This document shows positions 19,565-64,000 of a DNA stretch of 64,000 nucleotides, in pieces (the first letter of the stretch is position 1; every line of letters starts with the position of its first letter). The position numbers and the translations under genes are program-made. The stretch lies in IMG/VR virus record IMGVR_UViG_3300028833_002727; one strand, 5' to 3'. Under the pieces are notes generated by a model. It saw only the letters and a list, made by a program, of their open reading frames with translations, searched no databases and was not told where the DNA came from. Source of the DNA: a virus. Taxonomy: Duplodnaviria; Heunggongvirae; Uroviricota; Caudoviricetes.

Positions 19565-20287
19565 ATGGATAGTAAAAAACAAATAGTAGAAATAAAAAAA
19601 GGGAACGTCGGTTCTGGCTTATTATTAGAAAATGACGGATATATGTCATTGGATATGCCAGAAAACAAAATGCTGAAAGAATCAGTTGAGGCATTCCAGG
19701 GTGGTATGGCACATGAGTTGCCACGTCCTTTTGTTGTTTCTGCCGTATTCCAAAAATACGGTATTCAAAACGCTAACGGACGTATATATCCAGAAAAGAT
19801 ATTGAAAAGAGAAGTTGAGAAATATCAACAGGCAATTAAAGAAAGACGCGCTTTCGGTTGTTTAAATCACCCGGATTCAAGTGATTTGGATTTGGAAAGA
19901 ATATGTCTTTTAATTACTGAACTTCATTGGGTAGGGCATACATTGGTTGGTAAAATGGAAATTCCTATTACTGAAGGTTTCCGCAGAGATGGTATTTGTT
20001 CTAATCTTGCGGATACTTTAGCACAATGGTTAATTAGTGGCTTGCGTGTTGGTGTATCAAGTAGAGCATTAGGCGGCGTACAGCAAATCGGCGGTACATT
20101 GGTTGTTGATGATACCCTTGAACTAATTTGTTGGGATGCTGTTGGACAACCATCAACTCCAGGTGCATACATTGATACAAACGACGATGCTTTAACACCA
20201 TTCATTGAATCAAAAGAAGCACCTGATGGTAAACAGGTTATTAAAGAGGACAAATTTAGTAAATTCGATGGGTGGTTAAACGATTAA
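19565..20287 (+). CDS. gp21: Prohead core protease (T4 gp21-like)
   Basis: NANGRIYP, G.LNHP (catalytic His), VGVSSRALG (catalytic Ser), WDAVGQPSTPGA. Confidence 0.95.
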   Translation: MDSKKQIVEIKKGNVGSGLLLENDGYMSLDMPENKMLKESVEAFQGGMAHELPRPFVVSAVFQKYGIQNANGRIYPEKILKREVEKYQQAIKERRAFGCLNHPDSSDLDLERICLLITELHWVGHTLVGKMEIPITEGFRRDGICSNLADTLAQWLISGLRVGVSSRALGGVQQIGGTLVVDDTLELICWDAVGQPSTPGAYIDTNDDALTPFIESKEAPDGKQVIKEDKFSKFDGWLND

Positions 20288-23220: not shown

Positions 23221-24753
23221 ATGAGTAAGAAAAACAATACGGCACAAAAATCTGCTCTTGAAATTGAACAACTTTCAAAGGCTTTGAGAGAAGGTACTGA
23301 AAAAACTTTACGTAATCTTCTCAAAGAAGCAATTGAAGACATCGTTGACAACGATGAGGAATCACAAGATGCAGAACCTATCGAAGATGATAGTTATGAG
23401 GTACAAGATGTCGAAACTGACGAAACTCCAAGTGATGCACCTGAAGAAGGTGAACCAGAGACATCTGGCGAAGGCGAGGAAGCATCTTCAGATGACGAAG
23501 GTGGAGCCGACGAATGGGGTGATTACGACGAGTTCAAGGTAGGAGATAATGAATATGATTTCACTGGCGTGGATGGAGATTTAGCTCTCAAGATTTATCA
23601 AGCACTATCAGATGACGACCAAATCAGTGTTAAGAAAGATGATGAAGGTAACATCAAGGTTAGTGATGGTGAAACTGGCGCAGGAGTAGTGATCGAACTA
23701 ACACCTGAAGATGGTGGTGCAGAGAATGGCGAAGAAGGTATTTCTGATAAACTTCCTGGTGACGAAGGTGCAGAAGGTGATGCTGATGGCGACATTGACA
23801 TTCAACTTGAACCAGACGCAGAAGGTGGTGCAGATGATGAAATCGAAATCGACTTAGGTGACGGTTTAGATGATGAACCATCTGATGATGAACTTAACGA
23901 AGATTTAGGTTACACTGACAGTTATCAGAAAGATGTTATGCCAGGTTTAAAAATGAACGAACCAGCAGATAAAAAAGCAACTTACAGTATGGATGATGGT
24001 GCTCCAGAAGGTAACAAAAAACCTTGGGCTGGTAAGCACACTGAAAAAGACTACAAAGAGACACATACTGATTTAGCAGAAGGTTGTGAAGGTGGTGCTT
24101 GCGAAAAAGAACTTGAGGAAGGTGCTATGAGCACATCAAGTCAATCAGTAGCAAAAGAAACACACACTCCAACATCTGAACCACGTGCTAACAACGCACG
24201 TCAAGTTGCAAAATTAGTTCACAATGGTGGTAAACAGTTAGACGAGGCAAAAGCATTAAAAATCCTTGAAGCAGCAAAGGCCATTCAAGCAGAAAATAAA
24301 CAAATTAAAGCCTTAGCAGGTAAGTTAAGAAAAAGTCTTATGGAGGCTGCAACTCTTAACATGAACTATGGTAAAATTGTTACTTTGTTAGTTAACGAAA
24401 GTACTACAAAGGCTGAGAAACAATCAATCATTGAACGTTTCAATAAAGTTACCACAGTTAAAGAAGGTGCAATTCTATTTGAATCAATCAAACGTGAATT
24501 GAACGAAAGTCACAAGAGTGATGCTGCAAACGTTCTAAACGAACAAATTTCAGCAGAGTCTTCAAGACAAATCAACGAAACTACATTCTATCAAACAAGT
24601 GCTAACAACAAGAGTATTTCTTTAATGGAAAGAATGGATAACCTAGGTAGAAACTACTCAAAAGGTGGCTACAAACCAATTAACGAAAATACTAGTAAAG
24701 GGCTTGACTTAATGAATAGAATTAGTGGACTCCAAACAAAAAGACAAGTATAA
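23221..24753 (+). CDS. Prohead core scaffolding protein (gp22-like by position)
   Basis: Very acidic middle region, coiled-coil C-terminus, many L/I-x-E sites, immediately upstream of the MCP. Confidence 0.75.
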   Translation: MSKKNNTAQKSALEIEQLSKALREGTEKTLRNLLKEAIEDIVDNDEESQDAEPIEDDSYEVQDVETDETPSDAPEEGEPETSGEGEEASSDDEGGADEWGDYDEFKVGDNEYDFTGVDGDLALKIYQALSDDDQISVKKDDEGNIKVSDGETGAGVVIELTPEDGGAENGEEGISDKLPGDEGAEGDADGDIDIQLEPDAEGGADDEIEIDLGDGLDDEPSDDELNEDLGYTDSYQKDVMPGLKMNEPADKKATYSMDDGAPEGNKKPWAGKHTEKDYKETHTDLAEGCEGGACEKELEEGAMSTSSQSVAKETHTPTSEPRANNARQVAKLVHNGGKQLDEAKALKILEAAKAIQAENKQIKALAGKLRKSLMEAATLNMNYGKIVTLLVNESTTKAEKQSIIERFNKVTTVKEGAILFESIKRELNESHKSDAANVLNEQISAESSRQINETTFYQTSANNKSISLMERMDNLGRNYSKGGYKPINENTSKGLDLMNRISGLQTKRQV

Positions 24754-24791: not shown

Positions 24792-26672
24792 ATGCAATCA
24801 CAATTCTTATTAGAAAATCATTTAGGTGAAGCAGCGCTTCAACAACAAAAACAAGCTCGCGAACTTATTAGAGAACGTTGGAGTAACCTTGGTTTTACTA
24901 GAGGTTTAGAGGGTTATATGGAAGATAACATGGCAACTCTTTTCGAAAACGAGGCTCAAATGATGCTTTCAGAATCAACTGACGCACAAAACAGTGGTTC
25001 ATTCGAAACAGTTGTATTCCCATTAGTACGTCGTGTATTCTCACGTCTATTGGCTAACGACATCGTATCTGTTCAAGCAATGAACATGCCTATTGGTAAA
25101 TTGTTCTTCATCCTTCCTGTTACTAGCGAAAGACAATGGGATTTCGACGACATCGCACAAGCACTTTCTGCTTTGATGAGCGGACAAACTGTAGCAGGTA
25201 AACACGTTGGTTTGATGGGTTACCAAAGAACTAACCGTAACGAATGGGACGAAAACGGTGAAGGTACAAAACAAAACCGTTATTACTTACCAGACGAAGT
25301 AGTTAAACCTACTAGCAATGTTGAACCAAAAGTAACAGAGTACTTCAAGAAATCTCTTTACGATATGTTCTATAACGATGGTTTGTTCGACCAATCAAAA
25401 GGCCAAATCCATCTAAGAGCAGGTGAATTAGAGGAAATCGACAGAATCGAATTCGACGGTTCAGAAGTTGCACACGTAAGTGGCGCTCCACGTGCATTAG
25501 CATTCGATGGTACTGTTCGTAGTATCAAAGTTAAATTATCAGGTTTCAGCCCAGTAAACGCTGGTAGACTTATCGGTCCTGACGGTAACGAAATGGACAC
25601 TGAGGCTTTCTTGGCATCATTGAAAATTGTTACTAAAACTGAAATCGCAGCAGCTACAGGCGAAACAACAACAACTTCATTCAAGGAGTTAGAACCAGTT
25701 CACTTCCGCGTTGTAACACAACAATATGGCCGTGCAATGGTTCAATACGATAGCATCTGCAATGCTAAAGGCGAAATCTTACTTGAAATCGACTTAACAA
25801 AACCAACTGTACAAATGGGTAAAACTATTGACGGTTACATTGGTGTTGACGCAGACGCAATCGGTGATGTAAACGAAACATTCTTAGCAGTTTGGGCAGA
25901 ATACGACAGCCTTGAACTTGAAACTGAAATCGGTGAAGTTTCATTCAAACTTACAGACGTAACAGTTTCTGTTGAGGAAAGAAAACTTCGTGCAACCTGG
26001 TCACCAGAATTAGCACAAGACGTTGCTGCATTCCACAACATCGACGCTGAAGCAGAGTTAACTGCTATCCTTTCAGAGCAAATCGCTGCTGAAATCGACC
26101 GTGAAATCCTCCGTGACTTGCGTAAAGCATCTCCATGGACAATCAAATGGGATTACAATGGCTGGCGCCGTCAAGCAGGTTTCTCAACAAACTACACTCA
26201 GAAAGACTGGAACCAAACTCTTATGACTAAGATTAACCAACTTTCTGCTCAAATCCATAAAGCAACTTTACGTGGTGGTGCAAACTTCATCGTAGTTTCT
26301 ACTGAAATTTCAGCCGTTCTTAACGACTTAGAGTACTTCCATGTAACAGACGCTAACGCTGAAGCAGTTCAATATTCAATGGGTATTGAAAAAGTTGGTG
26401 CTCTTCAAGGACGTTATGAGGTATTCGTAGATCCATACAGTCCAGCACAATCATTGATTATGGGTCACAAGGGTGATAGTTTGTTAGACACTGGTTACAT
26501 CTACGCTCCATATGTACCAATGCAATTAACTCCAACTATCTATAATCCATTCAACTTCGCACCAGTAAAGGGTATCATCACTCGTTACGCTAAGAAGATG
26601 GTTAACAACAGATATTATGGTTCATTGGTAGTTAATGGACTTCAAACTTGGGACATCAACGAACTCCGTTAA
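24792..26672 (+). CDS. gp23: Major capsid protein (T4 gp23-like)
   Basis: PLVRRVF...DIVSVQAM..P.G; RKLRATWSPELAQD...H.IDAEAEL..ILSEQIAAEIDREI; GYIYAPYVP; GIITRYA; codon usage of a highly expressed gene. Confidence 0.98.
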   Translation: MQSQFLLENHLGEAALQQQKQARELIRERWSNLGFTRGLEGYMEDNMATLFENEAQMMLSESTDAQNSGSFETVVFPLVRRVFSRLLANDIVSVQAMNMPIGKLFFILPVTSERQWDFDDIAQALSALMSGQTVAGKHVGLMGYQRTNRNEWDENGEGTKQNRYYLPDEVVKPTSNVEPKVTEYFKKSLYDMFYNDGLFDQSKGQIHLRAGELEEIDRIEFDGSEVAHVSGAPRALAFDGTVRSIKVKLSGFSPVNAGRLIGPDGNEMDTEAFLASLKIVTKTEIAAATGETTTTSFKELEPVHFRVVTQQYGRAMVQYDSICNAKGEILLEIDLTKPTVQMGKTIDGYIGVDADAIGDVNETFLAVWAEYDSLELETEIGEVSFKLTDVTVSVEERKLRATWSPELAQDVAAFHNIDAEAELTAILSEQIAAEIDREILRDLRKASPWTIKWDYNGWRRQAGFSTNYTQKDWNQTLMTKINQLSAQIHKATLRGGANFIVVSTEISAVLNDLEYFHVTDANAEAVQYSMGIEKVGALQGRYEVFVDPYSPAQSLIMGHKGDSLLDTGYIYAPYVPMQLTPTIYNPFNFAPVKGIITRYAKKMVNNRYYGSLVVNGLQTWDINELR

Positions 26673-36115: not shown

Positions 36116-37033
36116 ATGAAACAAATAGATATAAATAAAAGCAAAGATTTAATCGCTCTCAAAGAGAGTTTAAACAATGTCATAGATAAAAAAATCGCAC
36201 AACAACGTTTATCTGAAAAACTTAACGAAATGAAAAATTTATCTTTCGGCGAGTATAAATCATTGTATGATGACATTATCAATGATTTGAGTGATATTAA
36301 CCTTAATGAGAGTATGAAGAGTCTTGCTTCATATGTTAAATTGCTTAAAGAGAACAAGGCGATTAGAAGCGTATATAAAATTATCGACCATGTTGGCTTA
36401 GATACCACATCTGATCCAACCATTACAGCATATGCATGGGCAACTATCTTGGAGAGTGTTGATAAGAAACAACTAAAAGAAGGTGAACAAAAAATGTATA
36501 ACATATACAAACGCGCTTGCGGTATGGTTAATAATGTTACACCTGAACGCATTGATAACATATTAGCAGAATCCAAGTCAGTGAACGACGCTGTAAAATA
36601 TCTTACACATCACAGCAATAGTTCAAATATCAATAAATTGAATGAGCGTGTGAATAGTATCAACGTTTTGAGTAACCTTATAAAAGAAAACGCCACAATT
36701 GAAAAACCACAAATAGAAGTTAACAAAGAAAATTCTGATTTAATTTCAGAATTAAATAATGTTTTTGTTAATGAATATACTGAATGGGAAAACAAGGTAC
36801 TAAAAGATTTGTCAGTTTGTTATGCTTCTGGCGGTGATACAAGAGAATTGTTTGAACAATATAAAACAAGTTGCATTGAAGCTATTGATTCTATTGATGA
36901 TGAGGATTTAACAACGAAGTCAAGACTTCATGGTATGAAGCAACAGTTAATGGAAAAAGAATATAATAAAGAAACATTACAAGAGGATTTATTTAAACTC
37001 GCTGAATTAAAAGAAACTATCTTGGGTGAATAA
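36116..37033 (+). CDS. Hypothetical helical protein downstream of the portal
   Basis: Long ORF, TATTTAT at 36090, numerous L/I-x-E sites. Confidence 0.8.
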   Translation: MKQIDINKSKDLIALKESLNNVIDKKIAQQRLSEKLNEMKNLSFGEYKSLYDDIINDLSDINLNESMKSLASYVKLLKENKAIRSVYKIIDHVGLDTTSDPTITAYAWATILESVDKKQLKEGEQKMYNIYKRACGMVNNVTPERIDNILAESKSVNDAVKYLTHHSNSSNINKLNERVNSINVLSNLIKENATIEKPQIEVNKENSDLISELNNVFVNEYTEWENKVLKDLSVCYASGGDTRELFEQYKTSCIEAIDSIDDEDLTTKSRLHGMKQQLMEKEYNKETLQEDLFKLAELKETILGE

Positions 37034-57263: not shown

Positions 57264-57304
57264 AAAAAAATAGCAAGCTATGCAACGCTTGCTATTTCTT
57301 TTTC
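57264..57304 (+). terminator. Hairpin terminator overlapping the polymerase stop
   Basis: aaatagcaagc-tatgcaac-gcttgctatttctttt. Confidence 0.75.
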
Positions 57305-60300
57305 TGTTTCAACTTCAGCAGCCTCATTTAACTGTTTCTCTTTTTCTTCGAGTAAATCAACCAAGTTCGCTAAAGTTGCAAGTACAACGTCAGGATATTC
57401 TTTACAAACGAAATCACCGTTTACTGGGTTAATATCTGCAATCTTTGTTAGTGATTCTGGTATTTCACCTTCTTCTAACAAATCATCAATTTCACCTATA
57501 GACAATTTGTTCAATTCTTTTTCGAATTTCTCACGCGTAGCATCAACGCCAAGACGTTTTTCCTCAGCCTTACGATGAATGTAATCTTGTTGAATACCTT
57601 CCCAAGTGCCCATTCCACATTCTTCAATAAATGGTGGTACTAATCCATATTCCATCCAGAATTTTATTTCCTTGTCTTCCATTGTCATAAGTTGTTCATA
57701 TGTATCCTGGTCGCTTGTCTTATAAGGTTGTCCAGAACTCATCTGACACTCTTCTTCCGTAAAATATTGTCTATTTTCCGGATTTGTAACAACTATTCTA
57801 TCACGAATAGACTTATCGAAACATACAAGTAATGGTTTAATACGTTTATTGAACATATCTATGTATTTTGCAACATTGTATTCAATTCCATTGTCATCAT
57901 CACACAAGACATCACTTTCACTTTCAACAATTTCTCTTGGTACAAGAATACAATTCATTATAACCTCTTCTGTCGTGTAGTAACCAGGATATTCCGTGGC
58001 AATCCATTTTTGTTTGTCAAGAACTGGAGCACCGATTTTCATACCGCATTCTTTCTTGTATTTTTTGTAGCCACTATCTATTTTGTTGGAGAATTCAATT
58101 TCATTTCCATCAAAATCTTTATAGTAGTAATGTGTTACTTTTTTGACATCAGAATGTGACTTACTCTTACCAGTATTTACATAGTATATGGTATCACCAT
58201 TATCAACATGCAAATCGTTGGCAATAGCTAATTCATACCATGCCTGTCTTGATTTTGGGCGCCCAGCCTTGGTTACCTGTTTTATATCTTCTAAGTATTC
58301 CTTAACACTTTTCTTAATTTTTCCCTTTGTTGCAATGTCACGAATAGGAATTTGGTAATTATAAATCTTCGCCAAATATTCGTAGTAGAACTCAATGAAT
58401 TGAGCACCTTCACCACGTAGCAACTGTCTAATTGCTGTATCAAGGAAAATCTCGATATATTGAGGCATCTTCTTCGATTTGATGGTATTGCCTACAAGTT
58501 TTACATCTTCAGGATATGTCTTGTCTGGGAAATAGTCCGCATAGTTCTTACGGGAGAAGTTAATAGTTGAACTAACAACGTCATCAATACCTAAACCCAT
58601 TTTGTTTACTGCACTTGGCGAGTAGTGGAAATCTTTCATGTACATATCGTTGAACTCAGCAACATCAGCAGCAAATCCTGTATATGCTTTACCTTCTTTT
58701 ACCTCACGGTTTAACCCTTTACCGATGTAAGGGTTCTCTTCGGTATATCTATACGTTTTAGGTATTTGGAAGTTGAAACCATCAGTATCACCTACAATTG
58801 GTTCATATCCCAAATCATGGAAATGACTAATCATTAAACGTAGGCATTGACGCCCAGTACAAGTTGTTTGTTCAGCACATTTTTTGGATTTCCACGGGAA
58901 TACAGCGCCATTGTTAGAACCATAACTACCGAAGAACGAGTTACCAAGTTTTTTAACAACCGCTTGGTTATTATCATTAACTTTGAAATCATTTTTAGCA
59001 GCCTCATATTCAGCCAATTGTTCTTTGAGTAATTGAATACCATGAGTTAATTGTTTCTCATACTCATCAACAATATTTTCTGCCGCTTTCTTGAGTTTCT
59101 TGTATTTCTCACGGTTAGTCAATACGTATTCAAGCATATGTAACATTGCTTGCATCAAGTCAGTATCATCAGAAATACCCCAAGTTAAAATAATAGACGG
59201 ATAAAGTGAGTTGTAGTCCAATTTTACTACATCTCTAACATAGCCTACTCGCAAAAGACGTGATAAACCACCTGTAAAAGCACCTGTATTTGCTGCTAAT
59301 GGGATTGCTAAGTCGTTTTCATAACTCCACGCCAACATAATAGCCTTCCATTGTCCAGCCGTACCCATTGTTGTACACTTTGAGAATGGTTCAGGAATAA
59401 TTTTTGCTAACATGAAGTCAGTACCATTGTAACTATATTCAACTCTGTCACATTCCCAAATATCATCCAAAAGGTAGCGGTTAATGATATATTCACCTGT
59501 TACAACTTCATAACCATCTGCAAGATAGTTACGCTTGTACATAACAAATGGTTTATCACTAACTTTACCTTTCTTAAATTCAGTCTCTTTACTATCTGGT
59601 AATGTTTCATCATACAAATACCAGTCACCATCCGTATCATTGAAAGCATATTTATTGACGGTATCCGTCAATATTTTATCAATATCTTGTCCTGGAGTAT
59701 ACACACGGTTATCTTTCTTGATACCGAGGAAGCCACTAATATACTTCAAATCAGCACGTTTAATAGAACTGTTGGTTGCTTGTGCCCTACGTACAGCGTG
59801 CATTGAATCAGTTACCGTTGTATCTGGAACAATGGTACGATAGAATTTCTCTACCTCACCACCAAGTTTCAATGTGCTCTCGCGTGTTTCCTTATGTATA
59901 AACTCATCATGGAAATATTTTTTGGACATTTCCTCGATACTTGTACCTAACATTTCACAACGAACAATAATAAAGTTCCAGTCGAAGTTTTCACCGTTAT
60001 GTGCGGTGATGATGTCAGGTTTGAATGTGTATATAAGTTTCAAGAATAAATCAATAACTTCCAATTCCGATTTATTCTTTTCTTCTTCTGTATTACCACT
60101 GATTTTGAAAATTCTACCCCAATTCTTATATGTTTTACCATTGATGGTAACAGGACGATTTAAACGGACACCGTTAAGTTTCAAACGATGTCTTTTCGGG
60201 TCGAGTCCTTCCGTTTCCAAGTCGAATGCCATACGTAACAACTGGTCGTAGTCCGTATAACCCTTGAAAAAACGTTTACCTGTTGAAATTAGAAATTGTT

Positions 60301-60784
60301 CTTGGGGTGTTACTGTTAAGTATTGACGGTTTTTATCTCTATTCACAAGAGATTTATCGTCATCTTTCTTATCTGAATATACTGGGTTTCCTGCCCATTT
60401 GAAGAAACGAAGAAAGTCACTATACGACATCCTATTTTTGGCATAGAACAAAAACAAATATCCATCGTCAAACTCATGGCGAACCTCACCAAGACTATTT
60501 GTGTTATTTAAACGTTTAACACCTATTTGGAATTTATTGAGAAGTTTTTTTACCTCATTTCTATTACCACCACATAGTTTGTTACATGCCTCGTATGTAG
60601 CCCAAAGGAACGGGAAAAATGGTTCGTCTTTTACACATTTTCTATCCTGCTCATCTCTGTAGAATACGCTGATGAAATCATTTTTATAAGAATAGGATAG
60701 ATTTACTATTCGTTCTTGAGGGTCTCTACCCTCCATAAATTTAGCAATGTCCTCTTGCGAGATTTTAAGTTTTCTTTCTTCCAT
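57278..60784 (-). CDS. polB: Family B DNA polymerase with 3'-5' exonuclease
   Basis: FDLETEG (ExoI), HNGENFD (ExoII), YLLDD (ExoIII), LDYNSLYPSI, KKLGNSFFG, GDTDG. Confidence 0.97.
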   Translation of the reverse strand: MEERKLKISQEDIAKFMEGRDPQERIVNLSYSYKNDFISVFYRDEQDRKCVKDEPFFPFLWATYEACNKLCGGNRNEVKKLLNKFQIGVKRLNNTNSLGEVRHEFDDGYLFLFYAKNRMSYSDFLRFFKWAGNPVYSDKKDDDKSLVNRDKNRQYLTVTPQEQFLISTGKRFFKGYTDYDQLLRMAFDLETEGLDPKRHRLKLNGVRLNRPVTINGKTYKNWGRIFKISGNTEEEKNKSELEVIDLFLKLIYTFKPDIITAHNGENFDWNFIIVRCEMLGTSIEEMSKKYFHDEFIHKETRESTLKLGGEVEKFYRTIVPDTTVTDSMHAVRRAQATNSSIKRADLKYISGFLGIKKDNRVYTPGQDIDKILTDTVNKYAFNDTDGDWYLYDETLPDSKETEFKKGKVSDKPFVMYKRNYLADGYEVVTGEYIINRYLLDDIWECDRVEYSYNGTDFMLAKIIPEPFSKCTTMGTAGQWKAIMLAWSYENDLAIPLAANTGAFTGGLSRLLRVGYVRDVVKLDYNSLYPSIILTWGISDDTDLMQAMLHMLEYVLTNREKYKKLKKAAENIVDEYEKQLTHGIQLLKEQLAEYEAAKNDFKVNDNNQAVVKKLGNSFFGSYGSNNGAVFPWKSKKCAEQTTCTGRQCLRLMISHFHDLGYEPIVGDTDGFNFQIPKTYRYTEENPYIGKGLNREVKEGKAYTGFAADVAEFNDMYMKDFHYSPSAVNKMGLGIDDVVSSTINFSRKNYADYFPDKTYPEDVKLVGNTIKSKKMPQYIEIFLDTAIRQLLRGEGAQFIEFYYEYLAKIYNYQIPIRDIATKGKIKKSVKEYLEDIKQVTKAGRPKSRQAWYELAIANDLHVDNGDTIYYVNTGKSKSHSDVKKVTHYYYKDFDGNEIEFSNKIDSGYKKYKKECGMKIGAPVLDKQKWIATEYPGYYTTEEVIMNCILVPREIVESESDVLCDDDNGIEYNVAKYIDMFNKRIKPLLVCFDKSIRDRIVVTNPENRQYFTEEECQMSSGQPYKTSDQDTYEQLMTMEDKEIKFWMEYGLVPPFIEECGMGTWEGIQQDYIHRKAEEKRLGVDATREKFEKELNKLSIGEIDDLLEEGEIPESLTKIADINPVNGDFVCKEYPDVVLATLANLVDLLEEKEKQLNEAAEVETEKEIASVA

Positions 60785-60834
60785 ATTTTATCGTTTTTAC
60801 TAAACCGCATTCCACGGTTATTATTCTTCAACAA

Positions 60835-60866
60835 TAAATATACACAAAATAATCATTAAAAACAAA
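60835..60866 (-). promoter_or_regulatory. Promoter-like TTTG-N20-TATATTTA upstream of the polymerase
   Basis: Host-type spacing with a G-to-A change in the -7 box; overlaps TATTTAT at 60834-60840. Confidence 0.55.
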
Positions 60867-60895
60867 AAAGCGAAGAAAAAATCTTCGCCTTATTG

Positions 60896-61438
60896 TTAAA
60901 AGTTTAAATCCAACGGATACCTATCATCTTCCCAATCATCATCAGAATTGTCGTCGCCATTTTCATCATAATTACCTTCTTCATCAAATCCTTCTTCGTC
61001 TTTATCTTCCTCATTTTCGGGTTTTTCTGGCGGTACATAACCTGGTTTATCTTCCTCAAAATCTAAACCAAGAATATGTAACTGATCCACAACATCACTA
61101 TATTTTTCACCAAACGGAACAATAAACCTATGTTCAGGGTAATCATCCAATCCGTTAATATCTTGAAAACACAACGCAATACATCCGTCAATACAATCTT
61201 GCATTGAGAAACACGTATTCTCTTGCGCACATATTAACCTCATATCAGTTTTCAAGTGACGTATTTCGGAATAACTTGATTCTTCTGGCGTTACATCACC
61301 GCACGCTGCTGGACACATAACATACCAATAATCACCAAATGTTACTTCCGGCGTCTCTGAAAAGAAAAACTCATACTCATATACATCTTGTGAATTATGC
61401 CCTACAGGATATACATATACTAAACTTAACTCTTTCAT
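60896..61438 (-). CDS. Hypothetical protein with an acidic tail
   Basis: Clean ORF; FSMQDCIDGCIAL motif. Confidence 0.8.
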   Translation of the reverse strand: MKELSLVYVYPVGHNSQDVYEYEFFFSETPEVTFGDYWYVMCPAACGDVTPEESSYSEIRHLKTDMRLICAQENTCFSMQDCIDGCIALCFQDINGLDDYPEHRFIVPFGEKYSDVVDQLHILGLDFEEDKPGYVPPEKPENEEDKDEEGFDEEGNYDENGDDNSDDDWEDDRYPLDLNF

Positions 61439-61743
61439 CTTGGTTTTCTTGCGTTTTTAAGTTGCTCTTCAAACCACTTTTTGTGATTTTGAAAAGACTC
61501 TCTTATAATTTCATCTCTATGTTCTTTAATGTATTCTAAACCCTCTTCTTTAGTTAAAAAAACATACTTTTCTGGTTTATCGTAAATACCATATGTATCA
61601 GTTCCAGAACCATGATAATAGCCATTTTCAATCTTTGTTATTTGAAACGGTAATAGATACGGTTCGTTAACTGGTTCATTTGCTTTACCATATACGCTAT
61701 GTTCTAAACACCAACAAACGTCATCAATTTTTATGTCTTTCAT
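61435..61743 (-). CDS. Hypothetical protein
   Basis: Clean ORF overlapping both neighbours. Confidence 0.7.
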   Translation of the reverse strand: MKDIKIDDVCWCLEHSVYGKANEPVNEPYLLPFQITKIENGYYHGSGTDTYGIYDKPEKYVFLTKEEGLEYIKEHRDEIIRESFQNHKKWFEEQLKNARKPR

Positions 61744-62254
61744 ATTTACACATTTGTTTTCTTTTCTTTTTATTTTTCTTTACCCTTTTAGTAATTACTT
61801 GACAAAGCAATGCTGTTACTTCTGCTTCAGCATCAATTTTCTCCCCACTTTCAAGCATTCTTTCGCATTTCCTCCAGATTGATGGGAATAATTTTTTATA
61901 TAGTTTATGTAGACGTTTTGGTTCTAACACAACACCACGGCTATATAATCTCCTGATTGTTGGGAATACAATTGTATCGAAATATTTATCATCCTCACAA
62001 TATGTGCTGCTGCCACTCCACACAAGTTGAGCATCACTTATATCAACTTTAGTATTTTCCTTATAGTTAAGTAAATATCGAACCATAGCATCAAAAGCAT
62101 TTGAGCATATGATTTCACCATCATCTGATAAACCTCGTGTAAATCCTAAATCATACCATAAATTTAACACTACTGAATTTGGTGTGTTTAATTCATCCGA
62201 ATCAATAATGTTGTATGTATAATCTTGTGATATATATTCAATTAAATTCGTCAT
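61724..62254 (-). CDS. Miniature paralogue of the major capsid protein
   Basis: W..LGFTRGL, DAQ...SGS, F.T.VFP..RR..SR and IDAEAE.TA.L are shared in order with the MCP at 24792. Confidence 0.85.
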   Translation of the reverse strand: MTNLIEYISQDYTYNIIDSDELNTPNSVVLNLWYDLGFTRGLSDDGEIICSNAFDAMVRYLLNYKENTKVDISDAQLVWSGSSTYCEDDKYFDTIVFPTIRRLYSRGVVLEPKRLHKLYKKLFPSIWRKCERMLESGEKIDAEAEVTALLCQVITKRVKKNKKKRKQMCKYERHKN

Positions 62255-64000
62255 TTTTCGTTTTCTGTCTTGATTACTTTGTCAATTATCAATTGTTTTC
62301 GTAGAACAATATCCCACATGTGTTGATATTGTGTGTTTCTAAATATCTGATAATATATGTCAACTTCTTTTGTTTGCCCTATTCTGTGTATTCTATCTTC
62401 CATTTGCCTATTATCACCTGCGACAAATGACATATTATTGAATATAAGTGATTTAGCAACTACAAGGGTTAGTCCCACCCCGCAAGCGTCCATATTTCCG
62501 ATAAGTACTTTTATTTCAGGATTATCAATGAATGCGTATTTATTTTTCTCTTTTTCTTTTGGTGTACATTTACCATTGATAATTACCGCCTGTTTACCAT
62601 AGTATTCTTTTAAAGTATACAATTCTTCATCATAGCAAGTAGCAATAATCACTTTATCTTCAGTTTCAAGTATCTTATCTGCAAGTTTAATGGTGTTGCT
62701 AACCATTTCATTAGATAAATACTTTCTATATATACCACCTTCAAGCAAATCTTTATTTAACTCTTTTTCAGGATCAGCGGTTAACTGCGCTTCCTCATAT
62801 TCATCCCAGAGTTTGTTGTATTCAGATAATTGTTGTGGCGATAAATCATAGAATACTTCATGTACGTTTTTACCAGGTAACGTTAGTACATCATCTTTTA
62901 CACGACGTAAATATAAATGTGAAATACATTCCTTCAATTCATCAAGGTTTGATGCTCCATTTGCCTTTAATAATTTATCAGCATGGTCGTTTATATATGT
63001 ACGCATTTCATCATATTCATCGGACGTTAGTTCACGCACCAATTGTTTCGCATTTTCGTTAACATATTTCATTAACTCCTTCTGATCAGCAAGTGGTTTT
63101 TCCTTCAATTGTTTCCCAAATAAGAAATCAATCTTCCATTTATCGTATTCACCTGGTTTGTATATAAGTTCTGCTTCACAATATCTATATTTGTAAGCAT
63201 CCATATCACATGTAACTTGGTTCTCAATTAAATGTAGAATATAGAACAAATTCAATGGATTATTTGTAATAGGTGTACCTGTTGCAAGGAATACAGAGTC
63301 TGGGTTTGCCTTTTTAATTAACCCTTGTATTACCTTGTAACGTTGCGATTTATTGTTTGATAATCTGTGTGCCTCATCAACGATTAAACACGATTTCTTT
63401 TTGTGAATATATTTCAAAATTGGGCTATTATCTAACACACGTTTTTTTGATTCTTCGGTGTAAGCACGGGAGAAATCATAGAACTCATCCAAAATATCAT
63501 AGTTTACAATAACGAAGCGGTTTTCACGCCATTTACCCTTCTCTTTAGCCTCTTTAATGAGTTCAGTTTTTTTCATTTTTGTTTTACCAACAGGGTATCC
63601 GAGAAAAGTTTCAAGTTCATCTTTCTTCATTTTCTCGAAACCACCCTCAACAATTGTAATATCTCTTTCTGGTACATACCACATCAACTCTCTTTTCCAA
63701 TCGTTTTTCAATGTGGCTGGACAAATGATTAACACAGAGTCAAAATTACCCTCAATTGCCGCTACGGATAGTTCACAGGTGTTATGAGTTACAACATAAT
63801 TTTTTGATGTCAAATAGGTATTATCACATGAGTTCACCATTAAACATGTTGCATCTTCGTTTCTATTATATTCAACAGATTTAATACGTTTTGTACAATA
63901 TTTTTTAAATGTTGGTTTATATCTATCTCTTTTTCTTTTTAAATAAAATGGGTTATCTTTTATTTGTATTAAAACTTGATATTCTAAACCTTTATTTATG
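62251..64000 (-). CDS. SNF2-family helicase (C-extein), interrupted by an intein; 5' part lies outside the window
   Basis: LIICPATLKNDW..E, IVDEAH, ATGTPITN, GVGLTL, QMEDRIHRIGQ; the frame is open to the window end. Confidence 0.93.
   Translation of the reverse strand, partial: INKGLEYQVLIQIKDNPFYLKRKRDRYKPTFKKYCTKRIKSVEYNRNEDATCLMVNSCDNTYLTSKNYVVTHNTCELSVAAIEGNFDSVLIICPATLKNDWKRELMWYVPERDITIVEGGFEKMKKDELETFLGYPVGKTKMKKTELIKEAKEKGKWRENRFVIVNYDILDEFYDFSRAYTEESKKRVLDNSPILKYIHKKKSCLIVDEAHRLSNNKSQRYKVIQGLIKKANPDSVFLATGTPITNNPLNLFYILHLIENQVTCDMDAYKYRYCEAELIYKPGEYDKWKIDFLFGKQLKEKPLADQKELMKYVNENAKQLVRELTSDEYDEMRTYINDHADKLLKANGASNLDELKECISHLYLRRVKDDVLTLPGKNVHEVFYDLSPQQLSEYNKLWDEYEEAQLTADPEKELNKDLLEGGIYRKYLSNEMVSNTIKLADKILETEDKVIIATCYDEELYTLKEYYGKQAVIINGKCTPKEKEKNKYAFIDNPEIKVLIGNMDACGVGLTLVVAKSLIFNNMSFVAGDNRQMEDRIHRIGQTKEVDIYYQIFRNTQYQHMWDIVLRKQLIIDKVIKTENEK
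63781..64000 (-). mobile_element. Intein, C-terminal end
   Basis: KRIKSVEY...EDATCLMV...DNTYL...YVVTHN followed by Thr (+1), which fits the Walker A GK/T insertion site. Confidence 0.92.

What the first reader, a model, noticed from the sequence alone, without database searches (positions are those of the whole stretch)
61724..62254. Miniature major-capsid-protein paralogue among the replication genes
Seen: the 176-aa protein matches this phage's own MCP in four ordered blocks: WYDLGFTRGL vs WSNLGFTRGL (MCP 30-39), SDAQLVWSGS vs TDAQNSGS, FDTIVFPTIRRLYSR vs FETVVFPLVRRVFSR (71-85), and KIDAEAEVTALL vs NIDAEAELTAIL (416-427). About 330 MCP residues are replaced by ~30, the LSE maturation site is absent, and a basic tail is added. 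It is overlap-coupled between the SNF2 helicase and polymerase-region genes with no late motif. Known: capsid proteins trigger defences; the T4 Gol peptide that activates Lit begins in the region equivalent to the VRR block, and CapRel senses capsid protein. Inference: a non-assembling mimic of the immature MCP acting as a decoy for a host sensor, or as an assembly timer or chaperone that binds scaffold or protease.
Basis: partly seen in the sequence, partly recalled or inferred. Interest (0 to 1): 0.85.

Follow-up and report, generated by a model that had tools for sequence, protein, structure and literature searches.

The report
Stand-alone mini copy of capsid N-terminus
A jumbo T4-like phage keeps, inside its DNA-replication operon, a small folded protein copied from the removable N-terminal part and one helix of its own shell protein. 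It cannot build a shell, it belongs to a large unnamed family under selection, and it probably stands in for unassembled capsid protein, though its partner is untested.

Summary
ORF 61724-62254 (minus strand, 176 aa) is a real gene. It is homologous to the phage's own gp23-type major capsid protein (MCP, 24792-26672). Mini residues 19-107 match MCP 16-88 (hhalign 98.6%, E 9e-16). Mini 140-160 matches the start of the MCP spine helix (E about 0.003, and the best non-self match in the window). About 330 MCP residues are replaced by about 30. A basic tail is added.

The gene is not debris. About 30 close and more than 50 distant relatives exist, all 114-213 aa, none in Pfam or PHROGs. dN/dS is 0.16-0.42. 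AlphaFold gives a compact five-helix domain (pLDDT 84).

Distant members resemble the MCP type of their own phage lineage. Codon use argues against recent gene conversion. In three lineages the gene lies among non-structural genes, and a complete 309-kb relative lacks it.

What it binds is unknown. I favour a soluble stand-in for unassembled pro-capsid protein. The partner could be a host sensor, EF-Tu or GroEL, or else the scaffold. The decoy idea is plausible but untested.

The scan has found the same kind of protein in other huge phages. I found no description in the literature I searched.

The parts
61724..62254 (-). Mini-MCP gene (176 aa, P0001), stop codon included
   Evidence: ORF and translation. 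30 close homologues. dN/dS 0.16-0.42. AlphaFold pLDDT 83.7, pTM 0.77.
62129..62158 (-). Block 1, residues 33-42 (W..LGFTRGL), equal to MCP 30-39 in the propeptide
   Evidence: W33 and G37 are invariant or nearly so across 61 family members.
61937..61981 (-). Block 2, residues 92-106 (F.T.VFP.IRR..SR), equal to MCP 71-85. This is the start of the N-arm, equivalent to T4 gp23 residues about 93-107.
   Evidence: P98, R101 and R102 are nearly invariant. T4 mapping.
61775..61840 (-). Block 3, residues 139-160 (IDAEAE helix), equal to MCP 416-437, the first turns of the spine helix
   Evidence: Secondary hits on the MCP spine helix in two other genomes.
61727..61789 (-). Basic C-terminal tail, residues 156-176. 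Specific to this clade; its last 20 nt overlap the next gene.
24792..26672 (+). Parent gene: gp23-type major capsid protein (626 aa, P0002). Regions copied in the mini: residues 16-88 (24837-25055) and 416-437 (26037-26102).
   Evidence: Pfam PF07068, E 7e-71. T4 gp23 structures matched. hhalign.
23221..24753 (+). Likely scaffolding protein (510 aa, acidic N half, helical C half) directly upstream of the MCP
   Evidence: Composition. Homologous C-terminal region in the gene upstream of the MCP in 47 related loci.
19565..20287 (+). Prohead protease (T4 gp21 type)
   Evidence: Pfam Peptidase_S77, E 6e-20. phrog_207.
62251..63999 (-). SNF2-family helicase (5' end beyond the window). Its stop overlaps the mini's start.
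   Evidence: Pfam SNF2-rel_dom, E 7e-23. Synteny in L003-L007, L093.
60896..61743 (-). Two co-transcribed conserved genes (102 aa and 180 aa) downstream of the mini. The 180-aa protein has a long acidic tail.
60867..60891 (-). Terminator-like hairpin that closes the helicase-mini-orf102-orf180 unit, ahead of the family-B DNA polymerase gene (57278-60784)
   Evidence: Polymerase domains.

Best explanation
The gene encodes a soluble, single-domain, all-helical protein that descends from the phage's own major capsid protein.

It keeps only three pieces of the MCP: most of the propeptide, the first part of the N-arm, and the first turns of the spine helix. A new helix of about 30 residues joins them. 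In T4 this region faces the inside of the immature head before cleavage.

It has lost every element that locks subunits into a shell, and it has no cleavage motif. It is transcribed with replication genes rather than with the head genes.

I think it acts as a stand-in for unassembled pro-capsid protein: it occupies a factor that reads this N-terminal module. I favour a host-side reader, because the gene is accessory, lies in non-structural gene neighbourhoods and resembles its own lineage's MCP.

Shown: homology, selection, a compact fold, gene context and the family. Inferred: early or middle timing, binding by mimicry, and the identity of the partner.
For: Homology to MCP 16-88 and 416-437: BLASTP E 4e-8 and 0.003; hhalign 98.6%, E 9e-16; the C-terminal sub-profile finds the MCP spine helix as best non-self match.

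The shared residues are kept at protein level, not by recent gene conversion. About half of the identical residues use different codons, including AGC against TCA for Ser.

The family is large and made only of small proteins: 36 representatives of 118-213 aa (plus one 38-aa fragment) in the profile search, none of them a full MCP.

Selection is purifying: dN/dS 0.16-0.42 overall and 0.14-0.43 by region.

The model is confident and compact. All three blocks have pLDDT above 90 and the variable loop is disordered.

Minis group with the MCP type of their own lineage. The tree does not separate MCPs from minis (AU p 0.03). In 3 of 3 genomes with both genes, the mini's best MCP hit is its own, by small margins.

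The context is non-structural in three lineages. The structural-gene motif is absent upstream within the window, and a terminator follows orf180.

The gene is accessory. A complete 309-kb relative, two cultured relatives and a 595-kb phage lack it.

Literature on the equivalent part of T4 gp23:
- it targets fusion proteins to GroEL (PMC3012670);
- it lies inside the unexpanded head and probably touches the scaffold, and length mutants A94V and G97S flank the block-2 equivalent (PMC9546572);
Against: No partner was identified, so timing and binding are inferred from gene position and homology only.

The mini lacks most of the Gol-equivalent core (the conserved strand after block 2), so it is not a full copy of the one capsid epitope known to trigger a defence in T4.

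Crude dN/dS shows no positive selection, which an arms-race gene might show.

Resemblance to the own MCP fits a phage-encoded partner just as well. The margins are small, and the AU test group was named after the tree had been seen.

The basic tail and the replisome neighbours in this clade could point to a nucleic-acid role instead.
Confidence: 0.4

Rival explanations
1. Head-assembly accessory. The mini presents the same inner-surface module as pro-MCP to a phage protein (scaffold core, prohead protease, or the propeptides of neighbouring MCP subunits). It would act as a chaperone or timer that keeps that partner from acting early. Alternatively it is a core component taken into the prohead, with the basic tail left on the DNA.
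For: It keeps the part of the MCP that, in T4, lies inside the unexpanded head and is thought to contact the scaffold and set head length (PMC9546572; mapping).

Resemblance to its own lineage's MCP is expected if the partner is a fast-evolving phage scaffold. Related scaffolds are only 22-29% identical over their whole length, and about 27-33% in the conserved C-terminal region.

Some distant members keep an L/I-x-E motif at the position of the MCP cleavage site (sequences).

T4 internal proteins are also encoded away from the head cluster (my own knowledge).
Against: The gene lies outside the head module in all three lineages examined and has no structural-gene motif here.

It is absent from a complete 309-kb relative and from cultured relatives that build similar capsids, so it is not needed for assembly as such.

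It lacks the N-terminal leader shared by this phage's putative packaged proteins.

The cleavage motif is not conserved in the family or in this protein.
Confidence: 0.3
2. Co-opted domain. A helical module that happened to derive from the MCP now does something unrelated to capsids in this clade, for example binding nucleic acid or a replisome protein through its basic tail.
For: It is translationally coupled to an SNF2 helicase and followed by conserved small genes and the DNA polymerase, in conserved synteny. The poly-basic tail has 11 K/R in 20 residues.
Against: The tail is clade-specific. Most family members end right after the block-3 helix or carry other tails. Distant members are not next to replication genes.

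The residues that stay invariant across the family are the ones shared with MCPs. That is hard to explain if the MCP-like surface no longer matters.
Confidence: 0.15
3. Decaying partial duplicate of the MCP gene with no function.
For: It is a fragmentary copy of a longer gene. The loop at residues 67-91 is variable.
Against: The frame is intact in all relatives. dN/dS is 0.16-0.42. The family reaches down to about 20% identity with the motifs kept. The fold model is confident. Synteny and start/stop overlaps are conserved.
Confidence: 0.02

Closest known systems
N-terminal quarter of T4 gp23 (propeptide removed at Glu65, plus the start of the N-arm and Gol region)
   Same: It is homologous to the equivalent part of this phage's MCP. 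Block 2 maps to T4 gp23 residues about 95-107. That T4 region has known partners: GroEL targeting (PMC3012670), scaffold contact and length control (PMC9546572), and EF-Tu/Gol (PMC3014915).
   Different: It is free-standing and is not followed by an HK97 body. It has no cleavage motif. It carries a piece of the spine helix joined by a new helix, and a basic tail. It is encoded in a replication operon. The mini profile itself does not reach T4 gp23 in the PDB sequence search.
T4 gp24 head vertex protein (paralogue of gp23)
   Same: It is a second, diverged copy of the major capsid protein kept by the phage.
   Different: gp24 has the whole HK97 fold, assembles into pentamers, is late, and lies next to gene 23 (PMC9546572). 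The mini has none of these features.
Truncated 'cryptic' paralogues of the prohead protease in giant phages (SPN3US and relatives; PMC5694885)
   Same: Both are cut-down, presumably inactive copies of a head-morphogenesis protein, retained in giant phages, with unknown role.
   Different: The parent protein differs. No capsid-protein counterpart is described in that paper.
HK97 gp5 delta domain and separate scaffolding proteins
   Same: Both are helical modules that sit under the procapsid shell and are removed or absent in the mature head (PMC9546572, introduction).
   Different: The mini is not fused to a capsid protein and not encoded in the head module. This phage already has a scaffold-like gene upstream of the MCP.
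T4 internal proteins with a capsid targeting sequence
   Same: Both are small, partly basic, and encoded away from the head genes.
   Different: The mini lacks the leader (MKKV.LTE..) seen on this phage's putative packaged proteins, and has no conserved cleavage motif.
Phage proteins that block sensors of virion proteins, e.g. DSAD1 against DSR2 (PMC11087589)
   Same: This is the mode of action I favour: occupy a host sensor of a structural protein without triggering it.
   Different: As far as I know, DSAD1 is not derived from the tail tube protein it competes with. No sensor or binding is shown here.

Membership tests
Gp23-type major capsid protein (Pfam PF07068, HK97 fold) | Match to the Pfam Gp23 model | tested here: not met
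   No Pfam hit at E up to 1 for P0001 or for 36 family members. The true MCP scores E 7e-71.
Gp23-type major capsid protein (Pfam PF07068, HK97 fold) | HK97 body: E-loop, P-domain sheet, A domain (plus the insertion domain in this clade) | tested here: not met
   The protein is 176 aa. The equivalents of MCP residues 86-415 and 438-626 are absent. The model is five helices with no strands.
Gp23-type major capsid protein (Pfam PF07068, HK97 fold) | Homology to the propeptide/N-arm and spine-helix start | tested here: met
   hhalign 98.6%, E 9e-16. Spine-helix block E 0.003.
Gp23-type major capsid protein (Pfam PF07068, HK97 fold) | L/I-x-E maturation site for the gp21-type protease | tested here: not met
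   The MCP has LSE at 59-61. The aligned mini residues are L62-N63-Y64, and the close clade has no E there. Some distant members do keep the motif.
T4-type internal / capsid-targeted proteins | Shared N-terminal leader ending in a protease site | tested here: not met
   The leaders of genes at 37033, 37551 and 38320 begin MKKV/MKVK...TE/KE. The mini begins MTNLIEY with no resemblance.
Small huge-phage proteins ending in the RxxK(I/L)xx(I/L) tag (lead from earlier scan notes) | C-terminal RxxK(I/L)xx(I/L) helix | tested here: not met
   Absent from P0001, and no ORF of the 118.8-kb record matched the pattern. Present in distant family members P0044, P0077, P0078, P0082 and P0084-P0086.
Scaffolding protein | Encoded in the head module, co-assembles with the MCP and is removed at maturation | not testable with these tools
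   The position outside the head module argues against membership. Assembly behaviour cannot be tested in silico.
Anti-defence decoy of a virion-protein sensor | Binds a host sensor and suppresses its activation | not testable with these tools
   No host or sensor is known for this uncultured phage.

The most novel reading that the evidence does not exclude
Huge T4-like phages make, ahead of late gene expression, a soluble copy of the N-terminal module of their own pro-capsid protein. This copy occupies a host reader of that module without activating it. The phage thereby shields the later flood of real capsid protein. That would be a self-derived decoy, a mode of counter-defence not described for phages in the papers I could search.
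Probability: 0.3. Interest if true: 0.85.

Novelty: new variant of a known kind. Interest (0 to 1): 0.62.

Why it matters
Capsid proteins are among the phage molecules that bacterial immunity senses. The N-terminal quarter of T4 gp23 is already known to engage GroEL, EF-Tu/Lit and the scaffold.

A widespread, selected family of free-standing copies of exactly that module gives a handle on two things: what reads the immature capsid protein in the cell, and how huge phages manage that reading. The family is confined to uncultured large phages and missing from Pfam and PHROGs.

If the partner is a host sensor, this is a new class of self-derived decoy. If it is the scaffold or the protease, it is a new regulator of giant-capsid assembly.

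Either way the domain is small, predicted to fold well, and easy to express for pull-downs.

Tried and rejected
- Complex prediction of the mini with the C-terminal half of the scaffold candidate gave 'no answer' (score 0.00). That is neither support nor evidence against binding.
- The first AlphaFold run, with only close relatives, was unusable (pLDDT 52).
- Fold searches with the good model found no meaningful match: Foldseek PDB, VIA-align over 48,161 chains (best Z 4.5) and the ESM Atlas. BFVD gave only one likely family member, an uncharacterised 166-aa Myoviridae protein.
- tblastn of three family members against 50,697 deposited phage genomes found nothing.
- An IMG/VR scan with the close alignment found nothing. 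Two broad alignments were too diverse to scan with.
- The mini profile against PDB sequences gave only chance hits.
- No GroES or GroEL gene was found in the 118.8-kb record, which is only 34% complete, so this says little.
- Recent gene conversion between mini and MCP is rejected on codon usage.
- A shared C-terminal tag in this genome is rejected.
- A shared N-terminal packaging leader is rejected.
- Synteny comparison with the complete relative G001 was not informative, because its gene order differs.
- Metagenome records behind L004 and L006 could not be searched for their MCPs, so only three mini/MCP pairs were available.
- The ESM Atlas feature search gave nothing. Cluster look-ups gave no names.

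Full report
**The object.** The window's minus strand carries a 176-codon ORF at 61724-62254. Its ATG overlaps the stop of an SNF2-family helicase gene as ATGA. Its last 20 nt overlap the start of a 102-codon gene. A 180-codon gene follows, then a terminator-like hairpin (60891-60867), then the family-B DNA polymerase.

The window is part of a 118.8-kb IMG/VR virus record estimated to be 34% complete, which implies a phage of roughly 350 kb. One close relative of the ORF lies on a 357.9-kb contig.

**The resemblance to the capsid protein is real.** The phage's major capsid protein (MCP) is at 24792-26672: 626 aa, Pfam Gp23 at E 7e-71. It matches the solved T4 gp23 structures over its C-terminal half and over the N-arm segment.

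BLASTP of the small protein against this MCP gives two ordered matches: residues 33-106 against 30-85 (E 4e-8), and 140-160 against 417-437 (E 0.003).

Family-level tests strengthen this.
- A profile-profile comparison of 36 small proteins with 10 MCPs gives 98.6% probability and E 9e-16, for mini 19-107 against MCP 16-88.
- I built a profile of the C-terminal part from 33 distant relatives only. Run against all 900 six-frame ORFs of the window, it finds the MCP spine helix (residues 417-434) as its best non-self match (E 0.0027; next best 0.38).
- The same secondary hit on the MCP appeared in two other phage genomes.

The SDAQ/TDAQ block lies in a variable, disordered loop and is not supported.

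The other details hold:
- About 330 MCP residues are replaced by about 32.
- The MCP's LSE motif at 59-61 has no counterpart.
- The tail holds 11 K/R in 20 residues.

**It is a gene, not debris.** About 30 proteins at 58-82% identity occur in metagenomes, with the same helicase-mini-orf102-orf180-polymerase order.

Pairwise dN/dS among five orthologues is 0.16-0.42. By region it is 0.14-0.21 in the conserved parts and 0.43 in the loop at 67-91. The neighbouring genes are more constrained (0.03-0.30).

Nucleotide identity between two relatives drops to 61-64% inside the mini gene, while the flanks stay at 85-97%. So the gene is a local divergence island, though I saw no excess of non-synonymous change.

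**It founds a large unnamed family.** A profile search of 1.84 billion representatives returned 36 proteins, all small: 118-213 aa plus one 38-aa fragment. None was a full-length MCP. A second search added more.

All share the same signature: W..(L/T)G(F/L).(E)G(L), a helix with FE..A.YL(L/I), (F/L)P.(I/V)RR, then about 30-40 residues and (I)D.EAE.

None matches Pfam or PHROGs, and none is found in 50,697 deposited phage genomes by tblastn. A profile search did find one diverged 114-aa member in the uncultured 484-kb phage LR756508.

The C-terminal extension varies by lineage. Many members stop just after the last helix. This clade has the basic tail. Another clade ends in RxxK(I/L)xx(I/L).

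**Fold.** With 61 diverse sequences, AlphaFold gives a confident compact domain (pLDDT 83.7, pTM 0.77). It has five main helices and all three MCP-like blocks are above pLDDT 90. The loop that replaces the MCP cleavage region is disordered.

As far as I can judge without coordinates, that outcome did not occur.

No solved or predicted structure resembles it. That is expected, since solved T4-type capsid structures lack the propeptide.

**Relation to its own MCP.** The MCP N-termini of this phage group are very conserved and come in two types: 'LGF.EGL / VVFP.VRR' and 'TGLLEG. / VALP.VRR'.

The minis come in the same two types. On a tree of the shared region they group with the MCPs of their own type instead of forming one clade. 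Forcing the MCPs together costs 44 log-likelihood units (AU p 0.03). Two caveats apply: only 71 columns were kept, and the group was named after the tree had been seen.

In the three genomes where both genes are available, each mini's best-scoring MCP is its own, by small margins.

In this window about half of the identical residues use different codons, for example AGC against TCA for serine. So the likeness is maintained at protein level rather than by recent gene conversion.

**Context and distribution.** Three divergent lineages place the gene among non-structural genes.
- Here it sits in the replication operon.
- In an 89-kb IMG/VR record it lies among IMPDH-like, zinc-ribbon and, about 8 kb downstream, SNF2 genes.
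- In 202-kb and 57-kb contigs it lies among glycosyltransferase, phosphatase, kinase and methylase genes.

The motif RTATTTATW is enriched in the window (37 found, 13 expected) and precedes the protease and scaffold genes. It does not occur on the minus strand upstream of the mini within the window.

The gene is accessory. The profile finds only the MCP in a complete 309-kb relative, in Flavobacterium phage immuto, in Microcystis phage Mel-JY01 and in a 595-kb uncultured phage.

**What the copied region does in T4 (literature).**
- The N-terminus of gp23 targets fusion proteins to GroEL (PMC3012670).
- Residues before L106 are inside the unexpanded head and probably touch the scaffolding core. 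Length mutants A66D, A94V and G97S lie there (PMC9546572).
- Block 2 of the mini maps to T4 residues about 95-107.
- A 29-residue Gol region activates Lit through EF-Tu. About 100 residues of the first quarter bind EF-Tu more stably, and Gol is the most conserved part of gp23 (PMC3014915).

The mini keeps only the beginning of the Gol-equivalent stretch.

**Interpretation.** The secure statement is this: it is a conserved, selected, folded, shell-incompetent copy of the interior-facing N-terminal module of the pro-capsid protein, made from a non-structural operon.

How it works is inference. A protein like this most simply acts by occupying something that reads that module.
- I favour a host-side reader (an immune sensor, EF-Tu or GroEL), at about 0.4. 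The reasons are that the gene is accessory, lies outside the head module, is locally divergent and resembles its own MCP.
- A phage-side partner (scaffold, protease or pro-MCP) is nearly as likely, at about 0.3. It is equally consistent with the resemblance to the own MCP.
- A clade-specific nucleic-acid role of the basic tail is possible, at about 0.15.
- Decay is excluded for practical purposes.

**Novelty.** My searches of the paper library found nothing on capsid-derived mini-proteins. The nearest described thing is the truncated 'cryptic' prohead-protease paralogue of giant phages (PMC5694885).

Earlier notes of this scan report the same kind of protein in other huge phages. I treated those notes as leads only. 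Their tag lead was tested here: the tag is absent from this protein but present in distant family members.

Noticed in passing
window 60896-61438 (-): The conserved 180-aa protein downstream of the mini has a long acidic C-terminal tail ending in ...PLDLNF. That recalls the acidic tips of single-strand-binding proteins (my own knowledge). Homologues exist in G001, G002 and G005. It may be a replisome accessory protein.
   Followed up: partly
window 23221-24753 (+): A 510-aa protein with an extremely acidic N half and a helical C half sits directly upstream of the MCP. Its C-terminal region 350-476 is conserved in the gene upstream of the MCP in 47 related loci. It is a likely scaffolding protein with no Pfam or PHROG match.
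   Followed up: partly
L006 2105-5987: In one close relative the SNF2 helicase is 1035 aa and contains a LAGLIDADG domain (an intein or homing endonuclease insertion). Two extra small ORFs (146 and 111 aa) sit between the helicase and the mini.
   Followed up: no
P0095 (255 aa, metagenomic): This protein starts with a twin-arginine-like signal (..RREILKTSG..) followed by the MCP N-terminal motifs (W.KTGLL.GL, IPVVRR, LDAEAE). On the tree it groups with the MCP of the 595-kb phage LR756511. It is either an exported capsid-N-terminus look-alike or a mis-called ORF.
   Followed up: no
P0087-P0099 (339-365 aa, Pfam PF07068): The mini profile also picked up Gp23-family proteins of only about 350 aa, one of them on a 634-kb contig. 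They may be contig-end fragments or a mid-sized class of capsid paralogues.
   Followed up: no
L109 (G001:C1:202000-220000): The complete 309-kb relative that lacks a mini has a T4-type portal gene with an intein. It also has a ClpB-like double-AAA chaperone gene near the head genes.
   Followed up: no
window, whole: RTATTTATW occurs 37 times against 13 expected. It mostly lies just upstream of structural genes, but a copy also lies 49 nt upstream of the DNA polymerase start (60833-60841, minus strand).
   Followed up: partly
L003 vs L093, mini gene: Nucleotide identity falls to 61-64% within the mini gene while the adjacent orf102 is 94-97% identical. This suggests allele exchange or locally fast divergence at this one gene.
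   Followed up: partly
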